The position numbers were made by a program, and so were the translations under genes. DNA of 64,000 nt from Eledone cirrhosa (Eukaryota), in the NCBI GenBank assembly GCA_964016885.1, contig OZ024743.1, forward strand, positions 309,876,001 to 309,940,000, in the 5' to 3' direction. Of this stretch, positions 8,341 to 59,328 are shown in pieces; position 1 is the stretch's first letter; the number at the start of each line of letters is the position of its first letter. The notes beneath the pieces were generated by a model. The model was not told the DNA's origin, made no database searches, and saw only the letters and a list, made by a program, of their open reading frames with translations.

Positions 8341-11300
8341 TATAGGTTTAGGAATAACCAAAGAGTGCTTAGAGATACATTGTTTTATTAGCTAACAGTG
8401 TTTCATCCGTACCCTAAGGCAGGAATCATCAGAGCCTATAAACAAGAATATATCAATAGTTGCATGCTCCATCAAGCTGCGTCACCAGAACAAGGTTAAG
8501 GGGCCAGCAGGGGATCTCGAGGCCAGCGCTAAATAGAAACAGACGCAATTCATGACGCATATAATGTCATAAAATGTCATAAAACATGTCATAAAAAATG
8601 TCATGAAAAATTACATCAAAGGTCACATCATAAATTTATCATTTACATGGTGCAATAGATGACAAGGAGGTTGGGGGGAGGGTAGCAGGGAATGGGTGAA
8701 GGTGTTACTCAGCCTGATCAAAAACAATAAAAACATAAAAAACAATAAAAAACGTAGAAGCAAAACACCAAAAGAAACAAACAAATCAAGGTATAGATAC
8801 ATCAAAGCTCAAGCAGTGTAGATACAGGTTATACAGGCAGATTAAAAGATCTTGCAAACATGAGTCTGTGAGAAGGATAGTTGATGCAGCTTTACATGTA
8901 GGATTGTCTATAGGAAGGTTATAAGGCTTGTAATAGGTCGATCTTCCGTATCTTATCAGCACACTACGGACAACATCCATTGGTTCCAGTTCCGATCGTT
9001 AGGTGAAGTAACACTATGTTTTCAAAACATATACTCCGGGGATTTATCCGGATAGGCAGTCAGCGATAAATCCCTAACTCTAAAATAAAATAAAGTACGA
9101 TGAGTTGAAGAAAGGTAGGGTATATGTACAGCCGGCATTCCAGTGAGGAAATTGAAAATACGATAGGTCCGCAATAACTGCAATCTCCCAAAGTCCTCAC
9201 GTTTGGTCAGTCAACCCAATGTCCCAAGTGAAATTCACTGTAAGGCCGAATAGGCATCGAAACAAATTGTCATACAGTATACAATTATACCGTTGTAAAT
9301 GTAAATCGTGATGGCTATTCCGTCACATACAGAAGGTGTGTACAGAGAACTCCGCTTCCAGAATTACCTATGGCAGAGTGAAGGAAAAGCAGATGTGGTT
9401 ACAATAATAAGCGGATTTATTAGAGTGGGTGCAAATTTCTGTAGAAAATATAGAAAACTCACGGCTAAAACTGTCAATGACAACTAAGTTATTTACATTC
9501 CGACACGTGGTTTTCGTGTAGATTACCGAATCCGGAGGTTGTAATCTATTCACAGTCGGGTGTGACCCCTCCTGGGTCGGCCGGAAGTCAATATCTACTG
9601 TCGCACACTGCCTTGAGTGTGGTTCTATCATTCATCATATTTGCAGCACAATTCATATTCAGCAATTTCAAAATTCCAAAGGTTAGCCTCTCACTAGTAA
9701 AACACAACGGTTGTCAGAATATAAACGCAGGTAATCGTAGTGTGCTTATGAAAAGTATGGGAGGCAATTCGTGTCATAAAGGGCGGATTCACTAGATATC
9801 CACGGGACGCTTGGGGCATATCATTTGTTCGATTCAAACCCCTCAGCGACCAACCACTCCTTCCCCCCGGGGCTTGATCGATTCTGCGGCACTCAGACCA
9901 CATCATTTTCTCTCTTATTTCACTATACTATATTAGGGTCAAGTCCATCCGGACCCCGGTTGCCCAAACCATTCGCTTTATAGCTGCGGCGGAGTTTGTT
10001 GGGCTTTCGATAGACTATTAGGCTGTGCTATCAGTTAGCGCATAATGGGTGCGTTTATAAACCGTATCATTATGGTTAGTGTGGGTAGGTGCCTGCATAG
10101 GGTCAAGCTGAGCTAGGTATAGGGAAAAGCCTTAAGCAGGTTGTACCCTATGTGTTATTGGTTAGTGGTAATAAGATGAACTAGGGAAGAGAGGAATAAA
10201 AAAAGTAAGCGAGAGGGGAAGAGAGAAATGAAATAGGAGAGTAGCCCATATACACTTGATGGGCAGTTAATGTTACAGAGAAACCAGGAACCAGGGTGGC
10301 ACGATTTTACGTAGGCCTGACAGGGGGAGGTGTGCAAGTCCTACAGCGTTAGCTAATTGGTCTAAAGTAATAGAAGGAGCTAAGATTTATGTGCGGGCAA
10401 GAAGAGAATATATCCGATTTCCTATTTAGCAGGTTCAGTTTGGAGTATATTATGGCGTGTGATTCAGAGAGACAAAGGTCACAGGTCTTGCTAGGGGGTC
10501 TGTACTGCAATGATTTAATGCTGATTCTCCAATCAAGCTTGTATTGAATATCAGTGTTCTTCAGGAGGGATATGTAACTAGCTAGGGATGTGGTATTATA
10601 AGTCTATCATGTCTAAACGTAAGCGATAGGAGTTGTATCTAGTCTTAAAGGAGGTCGATATAAGCCCTATATATGTTTTGGACGAAGTCCGAGTTGTAAC
10701 TTCACAAGCGTAGACAATATTGTTTATAAGGCATAGCCCCTTCAGGGGTCACTGAGCCTTTCGTCTGCAGTTACATTTGCGGTGTAGGTCACTCCGCGGT
10801 ACAGGAGATTTTTGGTTTTCCGTACGCTCCAGATTTGGTGACCGTACATCAGATGTGTGGATCGTACTGCTGGGTAACGCCGCATCCGGTCCGTCTAGTG
10901 GCTGCGGGTGTCCCACAGATGCAATGGTATTGAAACCCTTTCTAATTTTTTGTTGTTCGTTATGGCTAGGTGACGAGCTAGATTTGGAGTGGTGGAGAAT
11001 GATAGTTTAATTGTGTTTTTATTAATGATACTATGGTATTTACTACCGGAGGGGGGGGGGTCTTTTCCAAGATAGAAAAGAATGCCTTTGGTATATTGGA
11101 TTAAAGTAAGAATTAGATCTTTGCCTATTTCTTTTTTTCGTACAGGGGGAATAGTTTTCCCCGCGCGTAGACACCCCACCTTCTGTGGTAGAGAGAACCT
11201 GGAGTGGTAAACTAACCCGGAGGGGTTCGCTGGTTTCCCTGTCGTTCCTATTGTATCTCGGGTTTCTAGCTTTTATCCTACTGTCAGTATTATTGCTATA

Positions 11301-12327
11301 CCGATGAGGCATGTTAAATGGAGTCATTTGGGGTTGGTCGGAGCCGCCTACTGTACCCGTGTTGCTCCTATTTTTGTGTCCGCCTCCATTAAGCAAAACC
11401 ATATTGTGCGTGATTACATTATACTGTCCGGTCCTGGTGGTTTGGGGGTTGTTAGGTATATAGTATATTTTTTCTCTAAAACCGGACTTTGCTAGTGCCT
11501 TATTATAGTACCTTGCATTAGACCTAAATGCATCCTCATTATGTGATAGTCTGCTAATCCTATTAGATACCCATTTAATTATGGCATTTAGGACGGGTTT
11601 AGGGTGGTTGGAATTGGCATCTACGTAAGTTACCGTTTCATCCGGCTAGTGATAAGGTAAGAAGTATTTGTTTTCCAGATCCAGGGTCACGTCTAGAAAG
11701 TTAACCGTTTTATTATTTATGTCTATCGTTAAACTAAGGTTAATGCTTTTGAAGAATATATAGGTCTTTCTCGTCCTTTTTATATTATGTTTTTTTATAT
11801 TCAATAGTGAACAGGGCGTCGTCCCGGTACAGCCCGCCTCTGAAATGCGGGAATGTTTTATGTAGTTCATGGAGGAGGTAAAGTCCAACTAAATAAGTTT
11901 CATGTGCCGAATCGCTGGACCCCATTGTGATATCGAAGTTATTCGGCGTGTTCTTCCGGGTCCAAAGCTGCTCCTCGAAGATGATGATAGTTCTCCGGGC
12001 AGCAATGATAATGTCAATTTGGCATCTAGTCAGGTCACTATTTTGCATAGCTAATATAAGGGCCTTATTTAGAAGGATGGGCGAGATGGAAGTGTAGTAG
12101 GAATTGATATCAAATTGGATGAACTTCAGGGACTTATGGTTACTAATGCTTGAGAACCATTTAACTATTTAACCTTGTTCTGGTGACGCAGCTTGATGGA
12201 GCATGCAACTATTGATATACTCTTGTTTATAGGCTCTGATGATTCCTGCCTTAGGGTACGGATGAAACACTGTGAGCTAATAAAACAATGTATTTCTAAG
12301 CACTCTTTGGTTATTCCTAAACCTATA
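8341..12327 (-). mobile_element. 5'-truncated Naiad-type PLE with about 2 kb 3' UTR and about 158 bp terminal inverted HHR-bearing ends
   Basis: 8341-8499 is the reverse complement of 12169-12327, and both carry the hammerhead. RT and endonuclease fragments lie between them. Confidence 0.85.
10380..12165 (-). pseudogene. Decayed PLE RT + GIY-YIG ORF
   Basis: Fragments read FIQFDINSYY, FDITMGSSDSA..LVGLYLL..GGLYRDD, VNFLDVTLDL, YHSIINKNTIKLSFSTTPNL, CNCRRKAQ*PLKGLCLINNIVYAC..YIGL and CDLCLSE. There are several frameshifts. Confidence 0.9.
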
Positions 12328-16001: not shown

Positions 16002-19000
16002 GTAACAAATATGACCCCGACGGCAGAGTTCAAGCCGTTTCGACGGCTATTTCTGGACTAAATAAGAATGTTTAACCTGGTAAATAAATACCCGATCTTC
16101 TCAGGGGTATTTATTACCTTATATGGGAAGATAGTAATTGTCAAGATGATTGGTAAAAAAAGTGTTGTAAAGACAGATCATGGTATTTGGTGGGAGGTTG
16201 GAGTGACTGAACTTGCCGGCAGAACAAAGAGGGGGTGGGGGAAACCCAGAGAAGCGTTGAAATTGAAATCTATACAGCAGATTCTAAGGATAAAAGGTCG
16301 AAAAAAATGTACTGGAGAAGAGGAGGCTGGGGTGGGGTTGAAAGAATAGGTAAATCGAAAGTAGTAAAAAAACAAAACAATAATAATCGGCAAGTGGGGT
16401 ATCAGCCCTTGTCTACCCCCCGGTCATTATGGGGTTTGACGGTGAGGTAAGTCCTACGCAATCTGTGTTTGCATGCGGTTATCAGTTCCTCTTTCTTGTT
16501 TAGGAGTTGGTCCTTCGAAAACAGCATTTGTAATGTTACACGGACGGCGACCTCCCGTGTAAGATTTAGCTCTGGACAGTAAGCTCCAAGTGAGATTGTA
16601 GGTTATATTATTATATTTGAGGTCCAACATGTGGTCCGAAAGTGTAGTGGTATGTTGCCGGACCGGGTTTCGGAAAGTATGTCGGTGTTTGTAGAGCCGG
16701 GTCTTGAAGTCACAAGCGGTTAATCCTATATAAGCTTTGTTGGGGGTGTTCGTCCTCACGTTGCACTGGTAGATAACATTACGATCTCGGCATCTGTTGT
16801 TGAGGGGGCACATTGGGTCTATCAGGACAGTTACGGCCGGCTCTCCACTGGTGTCTAGGTTATTTCTTCCATAGGGGTGAGTTTTTTGTTGTTAGAGGAG
16901 GTGATGTTTTGTGCGAAGTTAGGTGTGGTGCTGTAGGAGAGTTTGATGGTATTTTTGTTTATTATGTTGTGGTAGCGGTGGTGTAGTAGGAAGTATTTTT
17001 CGAGGAGCCTAAAGAAGATTTTCCCGATAGGTGTTGTCACCTCGGCATTGTGGGGAGGATTGAACCATGTTACGTGGCGTGAGCGGCGGTGTCGCTTGCT
17101 GGTTCCGCTAATGGAAGCTGGATAATAGGATATTTCCTCCCGGAAACCACTCCGCTTGAAGGCCTGATTGTAATAAGGCGCATGTTCGTCGAATATCTGC
17201 TCATTAGCGGACAAACGAGATATGCGGAGGGAGATGTTTCTAGGATGGTTCGTTCGGCGGTGGATGTAATGCAGGTTGTCGTTTGGTTTCCTGTATCTGT
17301 AGTATAGATCATTGTCAAGGTTAAGGGTGACGTCCAGAAAGTTTACTCGGATTAGGGACGTTTGTATGGTTATTTTAAATCCCCAGTCCCGGAAGAAGCT
17401 GATTAGTTGTTTACGGACCCGGTCTGTACTACTGGGGTTGTACCCTTTGAGGGTGAGGAGCCAATCATCGCGGTACAATCCACCGCCGAATACAGGAAAC
17501 ATTTCGGTGAGTTTAACTAGTAGGAATAATCCTATAAGATCTGTGACCTCAGCCGAATCCGTCGCGCCCATACTGACGTCGAAGGGCGAGTCAGGAGCTC
17601 TCTTTATCCATTTGGAGTTGTCGAAAAGTAGGACTATCTTCCTCGTGTGGAGGATGATATTTCTTTCCTGGTCGGTGATGGGCGTGAATGTTTCGGCAAA
17701 GTCCAAGGCGGTCGTAAGGAGCGGTAAGGTAATTGATGCATAGTAACTCTCTATGTCAAACTGGATGAATTTTGTGTCTCGTTTGTCCTCCATATTACTG
17801 AACCATGAGATTACTTCCTGGGTGTTGAATCAGGCTAAGTCTCGCGTTTTGCTTAACTTTTGGTATATCACGGTCTAGGATTTTTTTACTGATTCTCCCT
17901 ATGTCGGACTTCGTTGGGTTTATAAGCCTGATGGATGGTTTGCGGTCAAAGTCGGATTTGTGGTCCTTCAGTGTGAAGTAGGGAGTCCTTGGGTCTAGGT
18001 GTTCAGTGCGGTCGGCGACCCCGAGGCTGGAGATAATTTGTTCGTCCATCTCGATTTATGTCCTCGATACTTGAATGGTTAGCCTTTTTATAGGTGGAGT
18101 TTAGGCTGCTCCTGATCAGTGTGTGCTATCTGTCGTTGTTGACGAAGTAGAGGTTTCCAGTTTTATCCGAGTGCACCATGATGTCGTTGGTGTTTTCATA
18201 CTCTGTTAATTTGCTACGCAGTTTTTGTAGGAATCTGTTGTGTCTGAGTTTGAATTTAATTCTCTTGACCAGTTGGAAAATGTCGTTCTCGAAGGGTGAG
18301 AGAATAGGGTTCAGAGGGGGGGGGGGGTTGTAGGTATTAAATCCGAATCTCTCCTTGGTATCGAAGTCCTGATTATCGCGGTATCTGTCGTAGAAAAAAA
18401 TTCTCCATCTTAGTCTTTTCGCAAAGAGGTCGATTTTTGGCGTGTGCATCCGAAGGTAAAGTTTTCTCGGTGGAACTGGGATGTTCTTGGTGGAGAAGTC
18501 GATGAGCTAGGCGGAAAAGTCTGGATATGGCAGGGTAGGGTCGGAAAGTGCTCTACTACGGAGATAGGAGCTAGATAACGAAGGAATTGTGGTAAGGAAC
18601 CAGATGGACCATGATGCACCAAAGTACTCAATACTTAGGGTAGTAGAGTGGGTAATAGGAACAAGTAGGACCCCGACGGCAGAGCTCAAGCCGTTTCGAC
18701 GGCTATTTCTGGACTAAATAAGAATGTTTAGCCGGGTAAATAAATAGCCGAACTTCTCAGGGGGTATTACCTAATATGGGAAGATAGTAATTGTCAAGAG
18801 GATTGGTCAAAAATTTGTTGTAAAGACAGATCATGACATTTGGTGGGAGGTAGATGTGGGTGAACATTTGGTTGCTGCTCCATTTCTGTGGTTTCTAAAT
18901 TTCTTAGTGGTATTTTTGTATTAGTATTTTTGTATTAGTATTAGTATTTTTGTAGTAGTATTTTAGTATTTTTGTTCTCAACTTATTAACCTGTCATTGT

Positions 19001-19851: not shown

Positions 19852-22310
19852 TAGTTATGTAATAAACAACATAAGACAATTATTTCATTTACCAGTGGTT
19901 TCTTGAAGATACATATCTATGATATGGATTATTCAATCAAAAATATTGCTATTCCTTCCAACATCACTTAGACCAAATTATTAATTGACAAAATTGAATA
20001 AGTCATAAAAAGAATGATATGGAAGGTGATGATTTTTGATGGACAATTCTGTGCTGGTTCTAATGACTACTTTGATATTAAATCACGCAAATACCCCCCT
20101 AGAGTTAAAGATATTGCCCACTTCGAAATAGACCTAGTTAACATGATTAATGAATTAAATTTCTGTAAGTACAACAACAATTTTCAATCCAAACTCATTA
20201 ACGACATTTCTAATTTTAAATGCTCTACTTTCCTGTTTTCTGACAAAACCAAAAATCATTATGAAGTAAATAACAGATAGCATCATTGCTAAATACCAAA
20301 AAGCTAATGTTAATACTTATAATATCATTAACAATGAAGCTAAAGTCCTAGCTAGTACTTTAAAAATTGATAACCGAACTGAAAGCCTAGTCAAACCGAA
20401 AGAAAATATTACTCTTAAAGACCATAAATCAGACTTTACTAATCGACCTAGTTGTAGACTAAGCAACCCCGCTAAATCTGAAATTGGTCTTGCGAGTAAA
20501 AAAATCCTAAGAAATATAATACTTCAAATAAGAACTAAGACTGACTTATCCCAATGGTTAAATACTTCCTCTGTTATATCTTGGTTTAATAATATATACA
20601 AGGAAAAAATAAGTGTAGATTTACCCAATTTGATATTGTTTATTTTTACCCCTCTATCACAGAATCCTTATTAATTTTGCTAGACTTTTCATTAATATTT
20701 CTAAATTGGAGTAAGATGTTATCTTACACTACTTTTCGCTAAAGAAGGTACTTGGGTTAAAACATCAATCCCTGAAAACTCTTTTGATGTCTCTATGGGC
20801 TCATATGATAGCGCGATTTAGTAGGATTATTCCTCCTCCACACCCTTAAAGAGAAATGTCCTTGCCATAATATCGGTTTATACCGAGACGATGGTTTTGC
20901 AGTTTCTCATACCACCAACGGCCATAACCTTGATAAATTCCGTAAATCAATACCTTTGCTAACCTAAATCTAAAAATTACTATAGATACGATTCTTACTA
21001 ATACCAACTTACTCGATACCAATCTTGACCTATTTACTGCCTCTTTTATACCCTATCATAAATCCAATGAACATTTAAGATATATACACAAAGAGTCTTG
21101 CCATCGCTCTATAGTCTTTAGAAATCTCATTCCTAAAATTCGTCGTAGGATCTCTACCTTATCTTCATCTCTAGATATTTTTAATAAAGCTGCTCCTTAT
21201 TATAGTAAGGCCCTCAAAAACAGCGGCTTCACCGAACAAATCAAATATTTACTTACTCCCCTTTCTAACACTAAACACCATAACAGGAAAAGAAAATTTA
21301 GATGGTTTATACCACCTTTCTCTATAACTGTTAAAACTAACGTGGGAAGAAAATTTCTCGAACTCCTAGACAAACATTTTCCCCAAAATCATAGATATAA
21401 TAAGATATTTAATAGAAATTTAGTTAAATCAGCTTGAAATCTGTTGCTGCCCATCAATGAAAACTAAAATCACCAACTCAAATGTACCTAGAGGAAATCC
21501 AGGATACAGCTGCAGGAAACCTGAAGACTGCCCATTACAGGGTAAATGTAACACCAAATCTATTGTATATGAGGCCAAGTTGACACCGATTATTAATAAC
21601 CAGCTAACCAGACGCGAGCGATATGTTGGCCTGACACAGGTCAGATTTAAAACCAGGGATTATGCACACGTCGTTTCATTTAAACACCCTGAAAACATCA
21701 ACGGCGCTGGCAAATAAAGTGTGGGAGTTTAAAGACAGAAACATTCTATTGATTGGTCAATTTTAGACCACTCAAGAAAATGCCTGAGGGGCACAAATAA
21801 ATTTTCTTTGTGTAGAAGGGAAACATTTAGAATTCTTCAAAACCTGAAAACCCCTCCAACTTGCCTCAATTCTAAGACGGAGACCTCCAGAAGTTGTCGC
21901 ACCTGAAATCGCACCTCCTTTTTAGCTGGATTAATACACCAACGATCACTCAACCACCTTGCGCACCCTCTTTACATATTAACCCTTCCACTCACTACCA
22001 ATATCATCACTTTAAGAACACTACATCTTAGCCAGTCCATTATATAAACATACTTTCAACCAATATATACATTTTTCTCCCTCATGTTTATTTATTTATT
22101 TCATAGGATTTATAATTAACCCCTTTTTTGCTACCATACATCTAACTCATACACACCCACCACCTTCATTCTGTACTCTACTTTTAGCCATATCACTTTA
22201 TAACCACATACCTTTATCGAGACCTAAGTACAAACATATACTTTCCACCACAATTTATACACCTCTTTTCTCCCTTACCTGTTCATTTTATTTTATTTTA
22301 GATATACTCC
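19852..22310 (+). mobile_element. Full-length but decayed Naiad-type PLE of another family (ORF about 19924-21930), with an inverted 3'-end fragment at 19852-19921
   Basis: MDYSIKNIAIPS..KRMIWK, SDKTKNHY, TLKDHKSDF, QFDIVYFYPSI, FDVSMGSYDSA, GLYRDDG, SCRKPEDCPLQGKC..IVYEA..YVGLT. It has many stops. Confidence 0.9.
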
Positions 22311-26531: not shown

Positions 26532-27526
26532 CTAGCATTAAAGCCCGGCGTTGCTCGGGGTCATAAAGTTACCAAAGTTAGGTTGCACCATCCATTTTAT
26601 GGCAGCACTTTTTTGTCTTCCAGGCACTGGGTGAATGAATTGCAGACCTGGAAGCATGAGCTGCGCCAGCAGTGACAATTGTAGTTTCGCCTATGGATAT
26701 TATCTGTGCAAAAAAGTGTTGAAATGTATTGTTTCACAGTACTTGCGCAACACGCGCGTAGACGATGCCAGCCGAACAACAGATCTGCGATGGAGTTGTT
26801 CTGCATGGTTGTCTGTGTGTTTTCTAAATTTAAGACAGCAGGGAGGTTTGTGATATGAGGGAGAGTTAGCTGTTGTTTCTAGCAGGTTTAGTGACCTCAT
26901 AGAGGATATGTGTTTTCTAAATTTAAGACAGTGGGGAGTGGTGTGATATGGGGGAGAGTTAGCTGCTGTTTCTAGCAGGTTTAGTGACCTCATAGAAGAT
27001 ATGTTTTCTAAATTTAAGACAGTAGGGAGGGGTGTGATATGGGGGAGAGTTAGCTGCTGTTTCTAGCAGGTTTAGTAACCTCATAGAGGATATGTGTTTT
27101 CTAAATTTAAGACAGTAGGGAGTGGTGTGGGGAGGGGTGTGATATGGGGGAGAGTTAGCTGCTGTTTCTAGCAGGTTTAGTAACCTCATAGAGGATATGT
27201 GTTTTCTAAATTTAAGACAGTAGGGAGTGGTCTGAACGGACAGTATCACCATCAAGCTTGGAAAGAGAAAGTAGCAGTAAGTATGAAGTTGTATAGATTT
27301 TGAATGGTAGTAGAAAGAGTTGAGCAGTTTAAATGAGAGAGAAAAATCGTAAAATATTGAGTTTTATCTATTTTTTTGCGTAATTGTGGGTGAAATTGAA
27401 AAAATTATCTGCGTCAAGGCGCAATCGAAACTATTTCGAATACTGAATTGTAAATTTCAATTGAAGAAATTCTATATCGTAGATTTCTATAACAAAGGAG
27501 CATGACCACACACTGAGCTTTATAGA
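26532..27526 (-). mobile_element. Non-autonomous Helitron
   Basis: The minus-strand 3' end is a hairpin CCCGAGCAACGCCGGG, then 8 nt, then CTAG|T. A candidate A|TC 5' end lies at about 27526. Confidence 0.7.
26815..27232. repeat. Minisatellite of about 93 bp, about 4.3 copies, inside the Helitron
   Basis: TTTCTAAATTTAAGACAG occurs at 26821, 26914, 27005, 27098 and 27203. Confidence 0.9.
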
Positions 27527-39235: not shown

Positions 39236-39716
39236 TGTAAGAGTGAGAAATGAAATTTTGTTTCATTCTTTTCCATTTATCGTTTTCGGTGCGCCCGGCC
39301 GACTAAACTCATTCGATATGCAAATTAGGATGCTCAGCCGTTAATATGCATAAGGAATGTATATACTTTGAGACGTTCAATCATCTGGCAGGAAGGTATA
39401 CGATGCTGACGATAGCTAATAAGCTTGAAACTAGTACATCGTTCCTGTGTCAGTGTTGAACAAAAAGGAGACGATGGTTGCCTGAACACTGTACGGCGTA
39501 ACTCAAGCTGTTTGTTTGTTTACAAACAAACAAACCGAACATTATAATAAATGTTCGGTAAACACATACGTACATATATATATGTGTGCATGTATGTATA
39601 TATATATACATACTACTATACGTCTGTATACATATATGTATGTACGTTTACATCCATACTTACATTTAAGTATCAGCCGTACTAAGAGTGAGAAATGAAA
39701 TCTCGTTTCATTCTTT

Positions 39717-39722
<6 letters not shown>
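39236..39722 (+). mobile_element. Retrozyme-like unit of about 445 bp with terminal redundancy; hammerhead at 39401-39441
   Basis: CGATG-CTGACGA-tAGCT aata AGCTt-GAAAC-TA-GTA-CATCG. GAGTGAGAAATGAAAT is repeated at about 39241 and about 39686. Confidence 0.8.
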
Positions 39723-39756
<34 letters not shown>

Positions 39757-41116: not shown

Positions 41117-43660
41117 AACAATATGACCTCGACGACAGAACTCAAGCCCTTTCGGCGGCTATTTCTGGACTAAATAAGATTTTTAGCCTGGTAAATAAAT
41201 AGCCGAACTTCTCAGGGGGTATTTCCTTATATAGGAAGATAGTAATTGTCAGGAGGATTGGTCAAAAATATGTTGTAAAGACAGATAAATCTATCATGGC
41301 ATTTGGTGAGAGGTAGAGGTGGCTGAACTTGCCGGTAGAACAAAGAGGGAGTGTGGGAAACCGAGTCAGGCGTTGAAAGTAAAATCTATACAGCAGATTC
41401 TAAGGATGGTGTATAAAAGTTTGAAAGAAGTGTACTGGAGAGGAGGGGGGTGAGGGGGTGGGTGAAAAAATAGGTAAATCGAAAGGGAGTAAAAAAAAAA
41501 CCATTATAAAAATAAGGAAATAAATATATAAAAACAATTTCTGGTTACTACTCCAGTTCTACAATCACCAAATTTCTCATTGGTATTGCTAAGCTATAGA
41601 AAAGTTTAATAGGTGGAGAATGGGAAAAATACTAAATATGAGATTGTAGTGCAAGAATTCTATAAAGCCGGCTTTACAGGGGTCTAACACCGCTGCTATA
41701 GAAAGTTAGTAATCAGCCAATGCTATCTTACAATGACAGTTTAATAAGGTGAGAACAAAAATACTAAAATGCTACTACAAAAATACTAATACAAAATACT
41801 AATACAAAAATACTAATACAAAAATACCACTAAGAAATTTACAAACGACCCTAACCCGAGTAAACTTCCTGGACGTTACACTTAACCTGGATAATGATCT
41901 GTACTACCCATACAGAAAACCAAAGGACAACCTGCAACACCGCTATACAACATAATCAACAAAAACACCATCAAACTCTCCTACAGCACCACACCTAATT
42001 TCGCACAAAACATCGTCTCCTCTAACAACAAAAAACTTAACCCCTATGGAAGAAATAATCTAGACACCATTGGAGATCCGAGCAGAAGGTGTAACTGTCC
42101 TGATAGATCCTCGTGCCCCCCCCAACAACAGATGCCGAGATCGTAATTTGATCTACCAATGCAACGTGAGGACAGACACCTCCAACAAAGCTTATATAGG
42201 ATTAACCGCTTGTGACTTCAAGACCCGGCTGTACCAACACCGACTTACTTTCCGAAACCCTTCCCGGCGACATGCCACTACACTTTGGGGTCACATCTGG
42301 GACCTCAAAGATAATAAAATAACCTACAATCTCACTCGGAGATTACTGTCCAGAGATAACTCTTACACGGGAGGACGCCGTCCGTGTAACTTATGCTCGG
42401 ATGAAACATTACAAATACTGTTTTCGAAGGACCAACTCCTAAACAAGAAAGACGAACTGGTAACCGCATGCAAACACAGATTGCGTAGGACTTATCTCGC
42501 TCTCTCAAAATCCATAATGACCCGGGGTGGGGTAGACAAGGGCTGATACCCCCCACTTGCCGATTTTGTAAGGGGAAACCCCTGCTTACAAAGGTAGACA
42601 TAAGGTTTTTATCTTTTCCTCTATGTTTCCTTGTTCCCCCTTCTCTTCCTAGTCCTTCCACTCCAGATCGCCTTCCTCGTCTTTTTTTCACCTTTCGCCT
42701 ATCGCGATGCAGCCCATCGATCCTCTGTAGCCTCAGTACCCCGTTCCACCTAAGTTTAAGATGGAATTGGCCGATTACAATTTTCATAGCAGATGTCTTA
42801 GACCCCAGTAACATTTTTTTCTTTCTGGTTGTTGCTCCATTTCTATGGTTTCTAAATTTCTTAGTGGTATTTTTGTATTAGTATTTTTGTATTAGTATTT
42901 GTGTATTAGTATTTTGTATTAGTATTTTTGTAGTAGTATTTTAGTATTTTTGTTCTCAACTTATTAACCTGTCATTGTAAGATAGCATTGGCTGATTACT
43001 AACTATCTATAGCAGCAGTGTTAGACCCCTTGAAAGCCGGGTTTATAAAATTCTTTTACTACAATATCGTATTTAGTATTTTCCCATTCTCCACCTATTA
43101 AACTTTTCTATAGCTTAGCAATACCAATGAGACATTTGGTGATTGTAGAAGTGTAGTAACCAGAAATTGTTTTTATATATTTATTTCCTTATTTTTATAA
43201 TGTTAATTTTTACTCCCTTTCGATTTACCTATTCTTTCACCCCCCCCCCCTCTTCTCCAGTAAACTTCTTTCAAACTTTTATACATTATCCTTAGAATCT
43301 GCTGTATAGATTTCACTTTCAACGCCTGATTCGGTTTATCCCACTCCCTCTTTGTTCTACCGGCAAGTTCAGCCACCCCTACCTGCCACCAAATGCCATG
43401 ATAGATTTATCTGTCTTTACAACAAATGTTTGACCAGCCTCTTAACAATTACTATCTTGCCTTATAAGGAAATACCACCTGAGATGTTCGGCTATTTATG
43501 TACCAGGCAAACAATTCTTATTTAGTCCAGAAATAGCCGTCGAAACGGCTTGAGCTCTGCCGTCGGCGTCATACTTGTTCCTATTACCCACTCTACTACT
43601 CTAAGTATTGAGTACTTTGGTGCGTTATGGTCAATCTGGTTCCTTACCACAATTCCTTCG

Positions 43661-44394: not shown

Positions 44395-44460
<66 letters not shown>

Positions 44461-44464
<4 letters not shown>

Positions 44465-47400
44465 TATAGACATAGAATATTCGAAAATATTCTGTATGTT
44501 TATAATAAACATTTTGAAGACCTAATCGCTATAGAATAGAATACGTCACGTATTACAATTAGATTCTCGATAAAAGCAAGGGAAGTAATCTACGCGTTTC
44601 ATTCTCGTTAGAAATCATCAGGACTACATATCCAGTGCTTTTATCGAGAATGACACAGCTAGAGACTTATAGAATACTTAGCTGTGTACAGGAACTGGTT
44701 TGAAAGAGCGGTTGCCGGTCCGGCAGAAATTAGAAATTGGAATAAATGCTCTGAAATAGCGATATATATGTGAATATAGACATAGAATATTCGAAAATAT
44801 TCTGTATGTTTATAATAAACATTTTGAAGACCTAATCGCTATAGAATAGAATACGTCACGTATTACAATTAGATTCTCGATAAAAGCAAGGGAAGTAATC
44901 TACGCGTTTCATTCTCGTTAGAAATCATCAGGACTACATATCCAGTGCTTTTATCGAGAATGACACAGCTAGAGACTTATAGAATACTTAGCTGTGTACA
45001 GGAACTGGTTTGAAAGAGCGGTTGCCGGTCCGGCAGAAATTAGAAATTGGAATAAATGCTCTGAAATAGCGATATATATGTGAATATAGACATAGAATAT
45101 TCGAAAATATTCTGTATGTTTATAATAAACATTTTGAAGACCTAATCGCTATAGAATAGAATACGTCACGTATTACAATTAGATTCTCGATAAAAGCAAG
45201 GGAAGTAATCTACGCGTTTCATTCTCGTTAGAAATCATCAGGACTACATATCCAGTGCTTTTATCGAGAATGACACAGCTAGAGACTTATAGAATACTTA
45301 GCTGTGTACAGGAACTGGTTTGAAAGAGCGGTTGCCGGTCCGGCAGAAATTAGAAATTGGAATAAATGCTCTGAAATAGCGATATATATGTGAATATAGA
45401 CATAGAATATTCGAAAATATTCTGTATGTTTATAATAAACATTTTGAAGACCTAATAGCTATAGAATAGAATACGTCACGTATTACAATTAGATTCTCGA
45501 TAAAAGCAAGGGAAGTAATCTACGCGTTTCATTCTCGTTAGAAATCATCAGGACTACATATCCAGTGCTTTTATCGAGAATGACACAGCTAGAGACTTAT
45601 AGAATACTTAGCTGTGTACAGGAACTGGTTTGAAAGAGCGGTTGCCGGTCCGGCAGAAATTAGAAATTGGAATAAATGCTCTGAAATAGCGATATATATG
45701 TGAATATAGACATAGAATATTCGAAAATATTCTGTATGTTTATAATAAACATTTTGAAGACCTAATCGCTATAGAATAGAATACGTCACGTATTACAATT
45801 AGATTCTCGATAAAAGCAAGGGAAGTAATCTACGCGTTTCATTCTCGTTAGAAATCATCAGGACTACATATCCAGTGCTTTTATCGAGAATGACACAGCT
45901 AGAGACTTATAGAATACTTAGCTGTGTACAGGAACTGGTTTGAAAGAGCGGTTGCCGGTCCGGCAGAAATTAGAAATTGGAATAAATGCTCTGAAATAGC
46001 GATATATATGTGAATATAGACATAGAATATTCGAAAATATTCTGTATGTTTATAATAAACATTTTGAAGACCTAATCGCTATAGAATAGAATACGTCACG
46101 TATTACAATTAGATTCTCGATAAAAGCAAGGGAAGTAATCTACGCGTTTCATTCTCGTTAGAAATCATCAGGACTACATATCCAGTGCTTTTATCGAGAA
46201 TGACACAGCTAGAGACTTATAGAATACTTAGCTGTGTACAGGAACTGGTTTGAAAGAGCGGTTGCCGGTCCGGCAGAAATTAGAAATTGGAATAAATGCT
46301 CTGAAATAGCGATATATATGTGAATATAGACATAGAATATTCGAAAATATTCTGTATGTTTATAATAAACATTTTGAAGACCTAATCGCTATAGAATAGA
46401 ATACGTCACGTATTACAATTAGATTCTCGATAAAAGCAAGGGAAGTAATCTACGCGTTTCATTCTCGTTAGAAATCATCAGGACTACATATCCAGTGCTT
46501 TTATCGAGAATGACACAGCTAGAGACTTATAGAATACTTAGCTGTGTACAGGAACTGGTTTGAAAGAGCGGTTGCCGGTCCGGCAGAAATTAGAAATTGG
46601 AATAAATGCTCTGAAATAGCGATATATATGTGAATATAGACATAGAATATTCGAAAATATTCTGTATGTTTATAATAAACATTTTGAAGACCTAATCGCT
46701 ATAGAATAGAATACGTCACGTATTACAATTAGATTCTCGATAAAAGCAAGGGAAGTAATCTACGCGTTTCATTCTCGTTAGAAATCATCAGGACTACATA
46801 TCCAGTGCTTTTATCGAGAATGACACAGCTAGAGACTTATAGAATACTTAGCTGTGTACAGGAACTGGTTTGAAAGAGCGGTTGCCGGTCCGGCAGAAAT
46901 TAGAAATTGGAATAAATGCTCTGAAATAGCGATATATATGTGAATATAGACATAGAATATTCGAAAATATTCTGTATGTTTATAATAAACATTTTGAAGA
47001 CCTAATCGCTATAGAATAGAATACGTCACGTATTACAATTAGATTCTCGATAAAAGCAATCTCGATAAAAGCAATGATGATTTCTAACGAGAATGAAACG
47101 CGTAGATTACTTCCCTTGCTTTTATCGAGAATCTAATTGTAATACGTGACGTATTCTATTCTATAGCGATTAGGTCTTCAAAATGTTTATTATAAACATA
47201 CAGAATATTTTCGAATATTCTATGTCTATATTCACATATATATCGCTATTTCAGAGCATTTATTCCAATTTCTAATTTCTGCCGGACCGGCAACCGCTCT
47301 TTCAAACCAGTTCCTGTACACAGCTAAGTATTCTATAAGTCTCTAGCTGTGTCATTCTCGATAAAAGCACTGGATATGTAGTCCTGATGATTTCTAACGA

Positions 47401-50053
47401 GAATGAAACGCGTAGATTACTTCCCTTGCTTTTATCGAGAATCTAATTGTAATACGTGACGTATTCTATTCTATAGCGATTAGGTCTTCAAAATGTTTAT
47501 TATAAACATACAGAATATTTTCGAATATTCTATGTCTATATTCACATATATATCGCTATTTCAGAGCATTTATTCCAATTTCTAATTTCTGCCGGACCGG
47601 CAACCGCTCTTTCAAACCAGTTCCTGTACACAGCTAAGTATTCTATAAGTCTCTAGCTGTGTCATTCTCGATAAAAGCACTGGATATGTAGTCCTGATGA
47701 TTTCTAACGAGAATGAAACGCGTAGATTACTTCCCTTGCTTTTATCGAGAATCTAATTGTAATACGTGACGTATTCTATTCTATAGCGATTAGGTCTTCA
47801 AAATGTTTATTATAAACATACAGAATATTTTCGAATATTCTATGTCTATATTCACATATATATCGCTATTTCAGAGCATTTATTCCAATTTCTAATTTCT
47901 GCCGGACCGGCAACCGCTCTTTCAAACCAGTTCCTGTACACAGCTAAGTATTCTATAAGTCTCTAGCTGTGTCATTCTCGATAAAAGCACTGGATATGTA
48001 GTCCTGATGATTTCTAACGAGAATGAAACGCGTAGATTACTTCCCTTGCTTTTATCGAGAATCTAATTGTAATACGTGACGTATTCTATTCTATAGCGAT
48101 TAGGTCTTCAAAATGTTTATTATAAACATACAGAATATTTTCGAATATTCTATGTCTATATTCACATATATATCGCTATTTCAGAGCATTTATTCCAATT
48201 TCTAATTTCTGCCGGACCGGCAACCGCTCTTTCAAACCAGTTCCTGTACACAGCTAAGTATTCTATAAGTCTCTAGCTGTGTCATTCTCGATAAAAGCAC
48301 TGGATATGTAGTCCTGATGATTTCTAACGAGAATGAAACGCGTAGATTACTTCCCTTGCTTTTATCGAGAATCTAATTGTAATACGTGACGTATTCTATT
48401 CTATAGCGATTAGGTCTTCAAAATGTTTATTATAAACATACAGAATATTTTCGAATATTCTATGTCTATATTCACATATATATCGCTATTTCAGAGCATT
48501 TATTCCAATTTCTAATTGCTGCCGGACCGGCAACCGCTCTTTCAAACCAGTTCCTGTACACAGCTAAGTATTCTATAAGTCTCTAGCTGTGTCATTCTCG
48601 ATAAAAGCACTGGATATGTAGTCCTGATGATTTCTAACGAGAATGAAACGCGTAGATTACTTCCCTTGCTTTTATCGAGAATCTAATTGTAATACGTGAC
48701 GTATTCTATTCTATAGCGATTAGGTCTTCAAAATGTTTATTATAAACATACAGAATATTTTCGAATATTCTATGTCTATATTCACATATATATCGCTATT
48801 TCAGAGCATTTATTCCAATTTCTAATTTCTGCCGGACCGGCAACCGCTCTTTCAAACCAGTTCCTGTACACAGCTAAGTATTCTATAAGTCTCTAGCTGT
48901 GTCATTCTCGATAAAAGCACTGGATATGTAGTCCTGATGATTTCTAACGAGAATGAAACGCGTAGATTACTTCCCTTGCTTTTATCGAGAATCTAATTGT
49001 AATACGTGACGTATTCTATTCTATAGCGATTAGGTCTTCAAAATGTTTATTATAAACATACAGAATATTTTCGAATATTCTATGTCTATATTCACATATA
49101 TATCGCTATTTCAGAGCATTTATTCCAATTTCTAATTTCTGCCGGACCGGCAACCGCTCTTTCAAACCAGTTCCTGTACACAGCTAAGTATTCTATAAGT
49201 CTCTAGCTGTGTCATTCTCGATAAAAGCACTGGATATGTAGTCCTGATGATTTCTAACGAGAATGAAACGCGTAGATTACTTCCCTTGCTTTTATCGAGA
49301 ATCTAATTGTAATACGTGACGTATTCTATTCTATAGCGATTAGGTCTTCAAAATGTTTATTATAAACATACAGAATATTTTCGAATATTCTATGTCTATA
49401 TTCACATATATATCGCTATTTCAGAGCATTTATTCCAATTTCTAATTTCTGCCGGACCGGCAACCGCTCTTTCAAACCAGTTCCTGTACACAGCTAAGTA
49501 TTCTATAAGTCTCTAGCTGTGTCATTCTCGATAAAAGCACTGGATATGTAGTCCTGATGATTTCTAACGAGAATGAAACGCGTAGATTACTTCCCTTGCT
49601 TTTATCGAGAATCTAATTGTAATACGTGACGTATTCTATTCTATAGCGATTAGGTCTTCAAAATGTTTATTATAAACATACAGAATATTTTCGAATATTC
49701 TATGTCTATATTCACATATATATCGCTATTTCAGAGCATTTATTCCAATTTCTAATTTCTGCCGGACCGGCAACCGCTCTTTCAAACCAGTTCCTGTACA
49801 CAGCTAAGTATTCTATAAGTCTCTAGCTGTGTCATTCTCGATAAAAGCACTGGATATGTAGTCCTGATGATTTCTAACGAGAATGAAACGCGTAGATTAC
49901 TTCCCTTGCTTTTATCGAGAATCTAATTGTAATACGTGACGTATTCTATTCTATAGCGATTAGGTCTTCAAAATGTTTATTATAAACATACAGAATATTT
50001 TCGAATATTCTATGTCTATATTCACATATATATCGCTATTTCAGAGCATTTAT

Positions 50054-50059
<6 letters not shown>
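44461..50059. repeat. Inverted tandem array of a 310 bp hammerhead-containing unit (non-LTR retrozyme-like)
   Basis: Units start at 44461+310n up to 46941 (minus sense), and the strand switches at about 47060-47075. Plus-sense cores lie at 47384+310n up to 49864. There are 17 intact cores, and (TA)n flanks both sides. Confidence 0.97.
47378..47420 (+). ncRNA. Minimal type I hammerhead (representative of 17 copies)
   Basis: GTAGTC-CTGATGA-tTTCT aacg AGAAt-GAAAC-GC-GTA-GATTAC. Stem III is palindromic (ACGCGT), and stem I is extended by the 16 bp pair ATTCTCGATAAAAGCA/TGCTTTTATCGAGAAT. Confidence 0.92.

Positions 50060-50105
<46 letters not shown>

Positions 50106-58093: not shown

Positions 58094-59328
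<1,235 letters not shown>

What the first reader, a model, noticed from the sequence alone, without database searches (positions are those of the whole stretch)
44461..50059. 5.6 kb palindromic array of a 310 bp hammerhead retrozyme: footprint of two-ended rolling-circle reverse transcription?
Seen: about 8.4 minus-sense and 9.6 plus-sense copies of a non-coding 310 bp unit, with 17 intact minimal hammerheads. I spotted only two substitutions (45457, 48518), and both outer ends are fused to (TA)n. The two arms end at different registers (about 130 and 165 nt 3' of the GUA cleavage site), neither at the cleavage site. Known: tandem 170-400 nt type I HHR repeats in animals (non-LTR retrozymes) yield circular RNAs and are thought to use PLE RT. 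Inference: both 3'-OH ends of a cut (TA)n primed internally on a circular or multimeric RNA and each copied it many times. That would give one very young back-to-back insertion. I do not know this architecture as described for retrozymes.
Basis: partly seen in the sequence, partly recalled or inferred. Interest (0 to 1): 0.9.

Follow-up and report, generated by a model that had tools for sequence, protein, structure and literature searches.

The report
Two-armed Penelope-type retrozyme insertions, clonal arrays
This 5.6 kb palindrome is one of an estimated 1,500-2,000 young insertions of a 310-base non-coding repeat with a hammerhead-ribozyme motif, each built of two back-to-back arms of near-identical copies with two fixed outer ends, a pattern that likely records a Penelope-type reverse transcriptase copying one small RNA circle round and round from both ends of a chromosome cut.

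Summary
Observation confirmed: 8.4 minus-sense and 9.6 plus-sense 310-bp units, 17 intact hammerhead motifs, two substitutions, (TA)n at both ends. It is no artefact and no one-off: the genome holds 16,564 exact hits of a mid-unit pattern. Of 114 insertions examined, 100 are back-to-back, and all 100 pair one 'short' end (about 130-139 nt after the cleavage site) with one 'tail' end (159-172); 14 are single-armed. This is the known Penelope-like-element (PLE) footprint (inverted 5'-truncated copy, tail at one end, two internal priming sites), here on a non-coding retrozyme; a coding PLE of this genome shows it too. The new part is clonality: 65 of 66 loci carry one haplotype through every unit of both arms (chance 0.16), with 37 haplotypes in 95 loci, private variants fixed across both arms in 16 loci, and no pile-up of 5' ends at the cleavage site. 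This favours a monomer-length, circular or nicked-circular RNA template, long proposed for retrozymes. Not shown: cleavage, a circular RNA, the enzyme donor. A few loci fit multimer templates or conversion. Verdict: new variant of a known kind.

The parts
44397..44461 (.). (TA)n target tract, left half
   Evidence: fused to the short end of the left arm
44461..47059 (-). Left arm: 8.4 tandem 310-bp units, RNA-sense register 12 (centre) to 130 (outer 'short' end, at the unit's internal TA-rich motif); 8 hammerhead motifs; one substitution at 45457
47060..47074 (+). Centre junction: 15-bp direct duplication of the last 15 bp of the left arm, joining the two 5'-truncated ends
47075..50059 (+). 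Right arm: 9.6 tandem units, register 281 (centre) to 165 (outer 'tail' end); 9 intact hammerhead motifs plus one cut at the junction; one substitution at 48518
47378..47420 (+). One type I hammerhead motif (helix I 5' strand, CUGAUGA core, helix II, GAAAC, weak palindromic helix III, GUA triplet; predicted cleavage between 47414 and 47415)
   Evidence: sequence inspection; no Rfam match
47415..47724 (+). One monomer in cleavage register; predicted highly self-paired (-72.5 kcal/mol, z -3.9, 1 of 100 shuffles as stable)
50025..50059 (+). PLE-type 'tail': the 35 nt (register 131-165) present at this outer end and absent from the other
50058..50101 (.). (TA)n target tract, right half

Best explanation
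The array is one insertion of a genome-wide, non-coding 310-bp hammerhead repeat family (a non-LTR retrozyme) with two back-to-back clonal arms and two fixed outer ends, likely made when a borrowed Penelope-type endonuclease/reverse transcriptase nicked both strands of a (TA)n tract and likely copied one monomer-length circular (or nicked, self-paired) RNA many times from each end. Steps: (1, inferred) arrays are transcribed, cut to 310-nt monomers by the hammerhead and closed or held shut by the long terminal stem; (2, inferred from ends, shown in vitro for another PLE) the enzyme nicks both strands, one 3' end primes at the short site and the other 26-35 nt downstream at the tail site; (3, inferred from clonality) both run round the same template and drop off at near-random points after a median of 3-5 turns; (4, inferred) the two cDNA ends are joined at the centre by microhomology or short templated patches and the second strands are filled in. 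Shown: architecture, end pairing, clonality, target preference, one target duplication. Confidence about 0.9 for two-ended PLE-type insertion, about 0.72 for the monomer-circle template.
For: 100 of 114 insertions two-armed, all 100 short+tail, none short+short or tail+tail. Samples not chosen as pairs: 40 consecutive short-end hits gave 36 short+tail and 4 single; 18 loci found with a mid-unit pattern gave 14 short+tail, 3 single, 1 gap. Both flanks TA-rich in 88 of 96. L235 lies in non-microsatellite DNA with a 12-15 bp duplication round the whole unit. Same haplotype in both arms in 65 of 66 loci with both arms of 2 units or more (chance 0.16); 37 haplotypes in 95 loci; 19 variants fixed in one locus only, seen in both arms in 16 loci, e.g. 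11/11 and 13/13 units (L199); loci differ by 2.66 fixed changes per unit but units within an arm by 0.18. Non-fixed variants shared by both arms at the same unit index: 2, against 90 unshared calls. 5' ends within 5 nt of the cleavage site: 4 of 190, 6.1 expected. Fixed variants spare the hammerhead core (0 of 28) and keep predicted pairs more often than one-off variants (9 of 15 vs 7 of 38, Fisher p 0.006), as expected of variants filtered as RNA. Centre microhomology mean 2.0 nt vs 0.75 simulated (43 junctions). A young coding PLE here has the same layout with its own two ends. PMC11167929; rolling-circle model proposed in PMC7229834 and PMC7761336.
Against: No cleavage, RNA or circle was observed. 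The coding partner was not found: none of the PLE ends inspected resembles the unit. In vitro the PAc element used uncleaved RNA and did not need its hammerhead. Four loci share a non-fixed variant between arms (L087, L093 at the same index; L228, L050x at other indices), L050x has two variants recurring 7 units apart, L069 (45 units) is a mosaic, L060 switches haplotype within an arm, L051 and L062 repeat variants within an arm: multimer templates, template switches or later gene conversion occur. Sequence cannot tell a covalent circle from a nicked monomer with template jumping or from clonal multimer RNA. 19 loci were chosen as pairs and inflate the pooled pairing count. All loci but the window's come from one contig of one assembly. 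The structure test uses a predicted fold that misfolds the ribozyme core.
Confidence: 0.68

Rival explanations
1. Same two-ended PLE priming, but the template is a long uncleaved read-through transcript of an existing array; both ends prime internally and copy toward its 5' end.
For: Hammerhead cleavage was dispensable and unprocessed RNA the main substrate in vitro (PMC11167929). Coding PLE arms of about 2 periods exist here. L087 and L093 share a one-off variant at the same unit index in both arms; L050x shows period-7 variants. 5' ends ignore the cleavage site.
Against: It gives new mutations no way to become fixed in all units, yet fixed differences between loci (2.66 per unit) exceed within-arm differences (0.18) about 15-fold, private variants fill both arms in 16 loci, and only 2 of 92 testable non-fixed calls are shared. 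Arrays could only shrink with each round.
Confidence: 0.11
2. The template is clonal multimer RNA made beforehand by rolling-circle transcription of an RNA or DNA monomer circle; the PLE enzyme itself copies a linear RNA once.
For: Explains clonality and the rare arm-shared variants equally well; RNA-RNA replication was raised for animal retrozymes in PMC7229834.
Against: Needs an extra, unshown activity; no data here point to it over the simpler model.
Confidence: 0.08
3. One end primes, the cDNA folds back and self-primes to make the inverted arm, and the endonuclease resolves the intermediate at the tail (self-priming model of PMC3846280; endonuclease resolution in PMC8557442).
For: Proposed in print for head-to-head PLE junctions; centre microhomology fits; arm lengths correlate weakly (rho 0.26).
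Against: Centres are mirror-like in only 5 of 95 loci and register differences are uniform (p 0.59, 82 junctions); either arm can be far longer; in L060 neither arm can be a copy of the other; both strands are extended on RNA in vitro. It would still need a repeated template for the first arm.
Confidence: 0.07
4. Short two-armed PLE-type insertions were later expanded and homogenised as DNA (unequal exchange, conversion), like ordinary satellites; this is the route favoured in the discussion of bioRxiv 10.64898/2026.07.22.740005.
For: L069 (45 units) is a mosaic with partial higher-order periodicity; L062 and L051 repeat variants; proposed in print.
Against: 83 of 96 loci have more than one unit in both arms, arm lengths fall off smoothly, partial end units carry the same private variants, and arrays under 1% diverged would need both arms expanded independently at most loci.
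Confidence: 0.05
5. Fold-back reads or mis-assembly created the palindrome.
For: Long inverted repeats are error-prone; no independent read spans this junction.
Against: Flanks differ on the two sides; centres are asymmetric and unique; the short/tail pairing holds in 100 of 100 loci; three other repeat families show the same layout with their own end pairs.
Confidence: 0.01

Closest known systems
Animal non-LTR retrozymes (Cervera and de la Pena 2020, PMC7229834; review PMC7761336; Li et al. 2026, bioRxiv 10.64898/2026.07.22.740005)
   Same: Tandem, low-GC, non-coding 310-bp unit with one type I hammerhead motif per unit, self-paired monomer, coexisting PLEs; weak helix III and U.U at helix II as in the axolotl motifs.
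   Different: Those papers, in the parts read, describe head-to-tail repeats, say no motif reveals the mobilising element, and offer rolling-circle reverse transcription as a hypothesis. Here insertions are two-armed, have two fixed PLE-type ends and are clonal per locus. Circular RNA was shown there and is untested here.
Endonuclease-bearing Penelope-like elements (Penelope/Poseidon, Neptune, Hydra, Naiad; PMC8557442, PMC3846280)
   Same: Inverted 5'-truncated copy joined at the 5' end, 30-40 nt tail at one end only, partial tandems, (TA)n targets, target duplication of about 10 bp or more when visible, hammerhead upstream of the end.
   Different: No reading frame; up to 14-45 units per arm instead of 1-2; the pairing of one short and one tail end is here a strict rule over 100 loci, whereas the papers call the tail optional; no coding relative identified.
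PAc (Poseidon of the green anole) in vitro system, Frangieh et al. 2024, PMC11167929
   Same: Both target strands nicked and extended, AT-rich target, two adjacent internal initiation sites that bound the tail, roughly 90-130 nt downstream of a hammerhead.
   Different: Linear RNA, no multi-turn synthesis tested, no preference of a strand for a site seen there; here every two-armed insertion uses each site once.
L1 twin priming and bacterial DRT2 rolling-circle cDNA (both recalled; DRT2 seen only as a search listing, PMC12039810)
   Same: Two target ends priming on one RNA give an inversion (L1); repeated copying of one RNA segment gives clonal tandem cDNA (DRT2).
   Different: Different enzymes; L1 arms cover different parts of one linear RNA, DRT2 products are not target-primed insertions.

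Membership tests
Non-LTR retrozyme | Tandem 150-450 bp repeats, GC under 50%, one type I hammerhead motif per unit | tested here: met
   310 bp, 32-34% GC, 17 motifs; motif by inspection, no Rfam match
Non-LTR retrozyme | No coding capacity | tested here: met
   No stop-free frame of 150 codons or more over the array
Non-LTR retrozyme | Hammerhead self-cleavage (monomer or dimer) | not testable with these tools
   Indirect only: 0 of 28 fixed variants in the core
Non-LTR retrozyme | Accumulates as circular RNA | not testable with these tools
   No run on record as RNA was available; clonality is indirect support
Non-LTR retrozyme | Coexists with coding PLEs; target duplications longer than 4 bp when present | tested here: met
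   Young coding PLE, 110 scored copies at 99-100%; one clear 12-15 bp duplication
PLE-type insertion | Inverted 5'-truncated copy joined at the 5' end | tested here: met
   100 of 114 insertions
PLE-type insertion | 30-40 nt tail at one end only | tested here: met
   Short end 126-139, tail end 159-172 (mode 165), one of each in 100 of 100
PLE-type insertion | AT-rich or microsatellite target | tested here: met
   88 of 96 with TA-rich flanks on both sides
Autonomous PLE | RT plus GIY-YIG frame between pseudo-LTRs | tested here: not met
   None in the array; it is not filed as an autonomous PLE
Non-autonomous derivative of a named PLE family | Homology of the unit to the pseudo-LTR of a coding PLE | tested here: inconclusive
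   No match among the PLE ends met in about 200 fetched loci and two protein searches; no exhaustive search was possible
Classical satellite DNA | Long unidirectional arrays with free ends, homogenised as DNA | tested here: not met
   Short dispersed two-armed arrays with fixed ends; L069 is a partial exception

The most novel reading that the evidence does not exclude
A PLE reverse transcriptase dimer loads both halves on the same 310-nt circular RNA, one at each of two adjacent sites, and each half performs strand-displacing rolling-circle synthesis from one end of the target cut. These arrays would then be the in vivo record of rolling-circle retrotransposition of an animal circular RNA, and the PLE 'tail at one end' and inverted copy would be the fixed product of an asymmetric two-site dimer, likely general to PLEs and to animal hammerhead 'satellites'.
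Probability: 0.45. Interest if true: 0.8.

Novelty: new variant of a known kind. Interest (0 to 1): 0.62.

Why it matters
How animal retrozymes get back into the genome, and why PLE insertions have inverted copies and a one-sided tail, are stated as open in the papers read (PMC7761336, PMC8557442, PMC11167929). This family links the two: its ends name a PLE-type enzyme, the strict short+tail pairing predicts one priming site per target end, and clonal arms predict a monomer-circle template. Each prediction can be tested with an existing in vitro PLE assay and with standard circular-RNA assays. It also shows a route by which short palindromic 'satellite' arrays (about 5 Mb here) arise in a single step.

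Tried and rejected
Rfam at gathering and at E-value 10: no hammerhead family. BLAST of the unit on the own genome returned nothing because common words are skipped; exact patterns were used instead. Search for the coding partner: the young Neptune-like family (ends 164 and 224 after its own hammerhead, 60-nt tail), a second Neptune-like copy, a second PLE family searched by protein and several PLE fragments have unrelated ends; 30 loci of the older sister family had no PLE frame upstream within 1.5 kb. Two PLE/retrozyme joins (L146, L170) were considered as co-insertion chimeras and set aside: deletion between neighbours explains L146, and L170 is old and ambiguous. Pfam did not recognise the PLE frames. 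Sequencing runs: no RNA holder listed. Three other runs each gave one 280-340 nt contig that closes on itself at depth 5-34, which a collapsed tandem repeat also gives; a raw Hi-C run gave 0 of 12.8 million reads, so it was no test of the junction. A systematic search for target duplications in imperfect TA flanks was weak (7 of 20 vs 59 of 380 mismatched pairs); only L235 is taken as clear. No exact match in viral or metagenome contigs. The count of templated centre insertions is confounded by haplotype variants and is not used as a number; 13 junctions were skipped there. L049 (assembly gap) and L146 were left out of the census. Two look-ups of earlier findings returned nothing.
Full report
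OBSERVATION. The window holds a minus-sense arm (44461-47059, 8.4 units) and a plus-sense arm (47075-50059, 9.6 units) of a 310-bp unit, joined by a 15-bp direct duplication and fused to (TA)n at both outer ends. The two substitutions (45457, 48518) and 17 intact hammerhead motifs are as reported. I number the unit from the first base after the GTA triplet. The monomer is predicted to fold stably (z -3.9), with a 16-bp stem continuing helix I. Rfam has no match; the motif resembles the weak-helix-III and U.U-helix-II forms described for axolotl (PMC7229834), not the strictly minimal form.

A FAMILY, NOT A ONE-OFF. In the own genome (3.0 Gb) a mid-unit 27-mer has 16,564 exact hits, the window's hammerhead haplotype 4,225, the short-end junction 1,092 and the tail junction 709 on the forward strand (reverse hits are counted several times). 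At about 9-10 units per locus I estimate 1,500-2,000 insertions. I fetched loci from contig C1 in list order. Of 114 insertions (window included; L049 and L146 left out), 100 are back-to-back with both 5' ends at the centre, 12 are single arms with a short end and 2 single arms with a tail end. In all 100 two-armed cases one arm ends at the short site (126-139; last unique base usually 130, followed by an internal TA-rich motif) and the other at the tail site (159-172, mode 165). Nineteen loci were chosen as pairs; two samples not so chosen agree: 36 of 40 consecutive short-end hits and 14 of 18 loci found by the mid-unit pattern, with 3 single and 1 gap. Single arms may have partners too short to see (L063 has 7 tail bases). 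L235 sits in non-microsatellite DNA and is framed by a 12-15 bp duplication, so both arms came in one event at staggered nicks. Centres are rarely mirror-symmetric (5 of 95), register differences are uniform, and microhomology is enriched, which excludes a fold-back artefact and argues against hairpin self-priming.

THIS IS THE PLE FOOTPRINT. Coding PLEs often carry an inverted 5'-truncated copy at the 5' end and a 30-40 bp tail at one end, and target microsatellites (PMC8557442; PMC3846280). A purified PLE protein nicks and extends both strands and starts at two adjacent internal sites that bound the tail (PMC11167929). A very young coding PLE in this genome (1,278 codons, RT then GIY-YIG, Neptune-like by my recall of the linker motif; 110 scored copies at 99-100%) has the same layout with ends 164 and 224 after its own hammerhead: of 11 loci examined, 8 pair the two ends, 1 has two short ends, 2 lack a second readable end. 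A 484-nt hammerhead family (window 58153-59227, L045, L037) and an older sister of the 310 family show it too. I did not find a coding PLE whose end resembles the 310 unit, so the donor enzyme is inferred by kind, not named.

TEMPLATE. If arms were copied from long read-through RNAs, a source array's unit-specific mutations would reappear at the same unit in both arms and could not become fixed. Instead each locus is clonal: 65 of 66 loci with both arms of 2 units or more share one haplotype (chance 0.16; 44 of 45 among non-reference haplotypes); 95 loci hold 37 haplotypes; 19 variants are fixed in a single locus, in both arms in 16 loci; loci differ by 2.66 fixed changes per unit against 0.18 non-fixed per unit; 2 non-fixed variants are shared at the same index against 90 unshared calls (multi-base indels count several times). 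5' ends do not gather at the cleavage site (4 of 190, 6.1 expected), and only 2 of 80 one-off variants lie within 5 nt of it, so the enzyme passes that point cleanly. Fixed variants avoid the core and tend to keep pairs. Arm lengths fall off smoothly (median 3.7 units, maximum 45). The simplest reading is a monomer bottleneck at each insertion, with both ends copying the same circular or nicked-circular RNA. Against: L087, L093, L228, L050x, L060, L051, L062 and L069 show shared, periodic or mosaic variants, so multimer templates, switches or conversion occur in a minority; the PAc hammerhead was dispensable in vitro; and no RNA data exist here.

NOVELTY. Each ingredient is in print: retrozyme circles and the rolling-circle hypothesis (PMC7229834, PMC7761336), retrozyme descent from PLE pseudo-LTRs (bioRxiv 10.64898/2026.07.22.740005, which leans to local DNA amplification), PLE architecture and two-site initiation. 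I found no description of two-armed, short+tail, clonal retrozyme arrays in six full-text searches; the word 'inverted' does not occur in the main text of PMC7229834. The library lacks most subscription papers, and supplements, which may show such loci, were not seen. What I saw: Li 2026 parts 1-3 of 5 (abstract to end of discussion); Frangieh 2024 parts 1-2 of 4 (main text, start of methods); Craig 2021, Arkhipova 2013 and the 2020 Cells review as passages; Cervera 2020 as passages plus one section.

VERDICT. Real; works like a PLE-driven, two-ended insertion of a retrozyme; meets the sequence criteria of non-LTR retrozymes, with cleavage and circular RNA untested. New variant of a known kind; interest 0.62, because it turns two open mechanistic questions into direct tests, although the layout itself is known from coding PLEs.

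Noticed in passing
window 58153-59227; also 39238-39725; L045 3405-7034; L037 1282-2641: A second hammerhead repeat family (about 484 nt) with the same back-to-back layout in (TA)n and its own end pair (about 260-274 and 319-328; tail about 60 nt).
   Followed up: partly
L132-L146 (e.g. G000:C1526:109000-130552): Very young coding PLE family (1,278 codons, asparagine-rich insert, hammerhead in the pseudo-LTR), at least 110 near-identical copies, tandem and back-to-back; a good candidate protein for in vitro work.
   Followed up: partly
L147-L176; L172 1081-1526: Older sister family of about 320 nt, 4,544 hits of a tail 20-mer, same two ends, hammerhead core often decayed.
   Followed up: partly
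sequencing runs X1-X24, laid on window 47385-47694: The unit is held by 20 runs of 17 studies under 18 organism labels; three laid runs show one flankless self-closing contig at low depth with 0-2 differences, and a Hi-C run under the label of the best holder has no read of it. Trace carry-over, RNA or spread between hosts cannot be told apart.
   Followed up: partly
L069+L070 510-15481; L050+L101 6407-12287; L060: Exceptions to clonality: a 45-unit mosaic arm with partial 27-unit periodicity, a 19-unit arm with 7-unit periodicity, and a haplotype switch inside an arm.
   Followed up: partly
L146 4700-9414; L170 345-1844: Coding PLE arms joined directly to retrozyme fragments near the hammerhead; deletion between neighbours or template switch.
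   Followed up: partly
L051 4599-4870: About 270 bp of unrelated, GC-richer DNA captured between the two arms at the centre.
   Followed up: no
window 11046-12168, 16532-17829, 20946-21852, 42064-42543, 628-942, 2278-2523: Decayed PLE RT/endonuclease fragments of several families; a further hammerhead-like motif near 8438 on the minus strand.
   Followed up: no
window 26816-27235 and 1408-1667: Short tandem repeats of 93 bp (4.4 copies) and 139 bp (1.9 copies).
   Followed up: no
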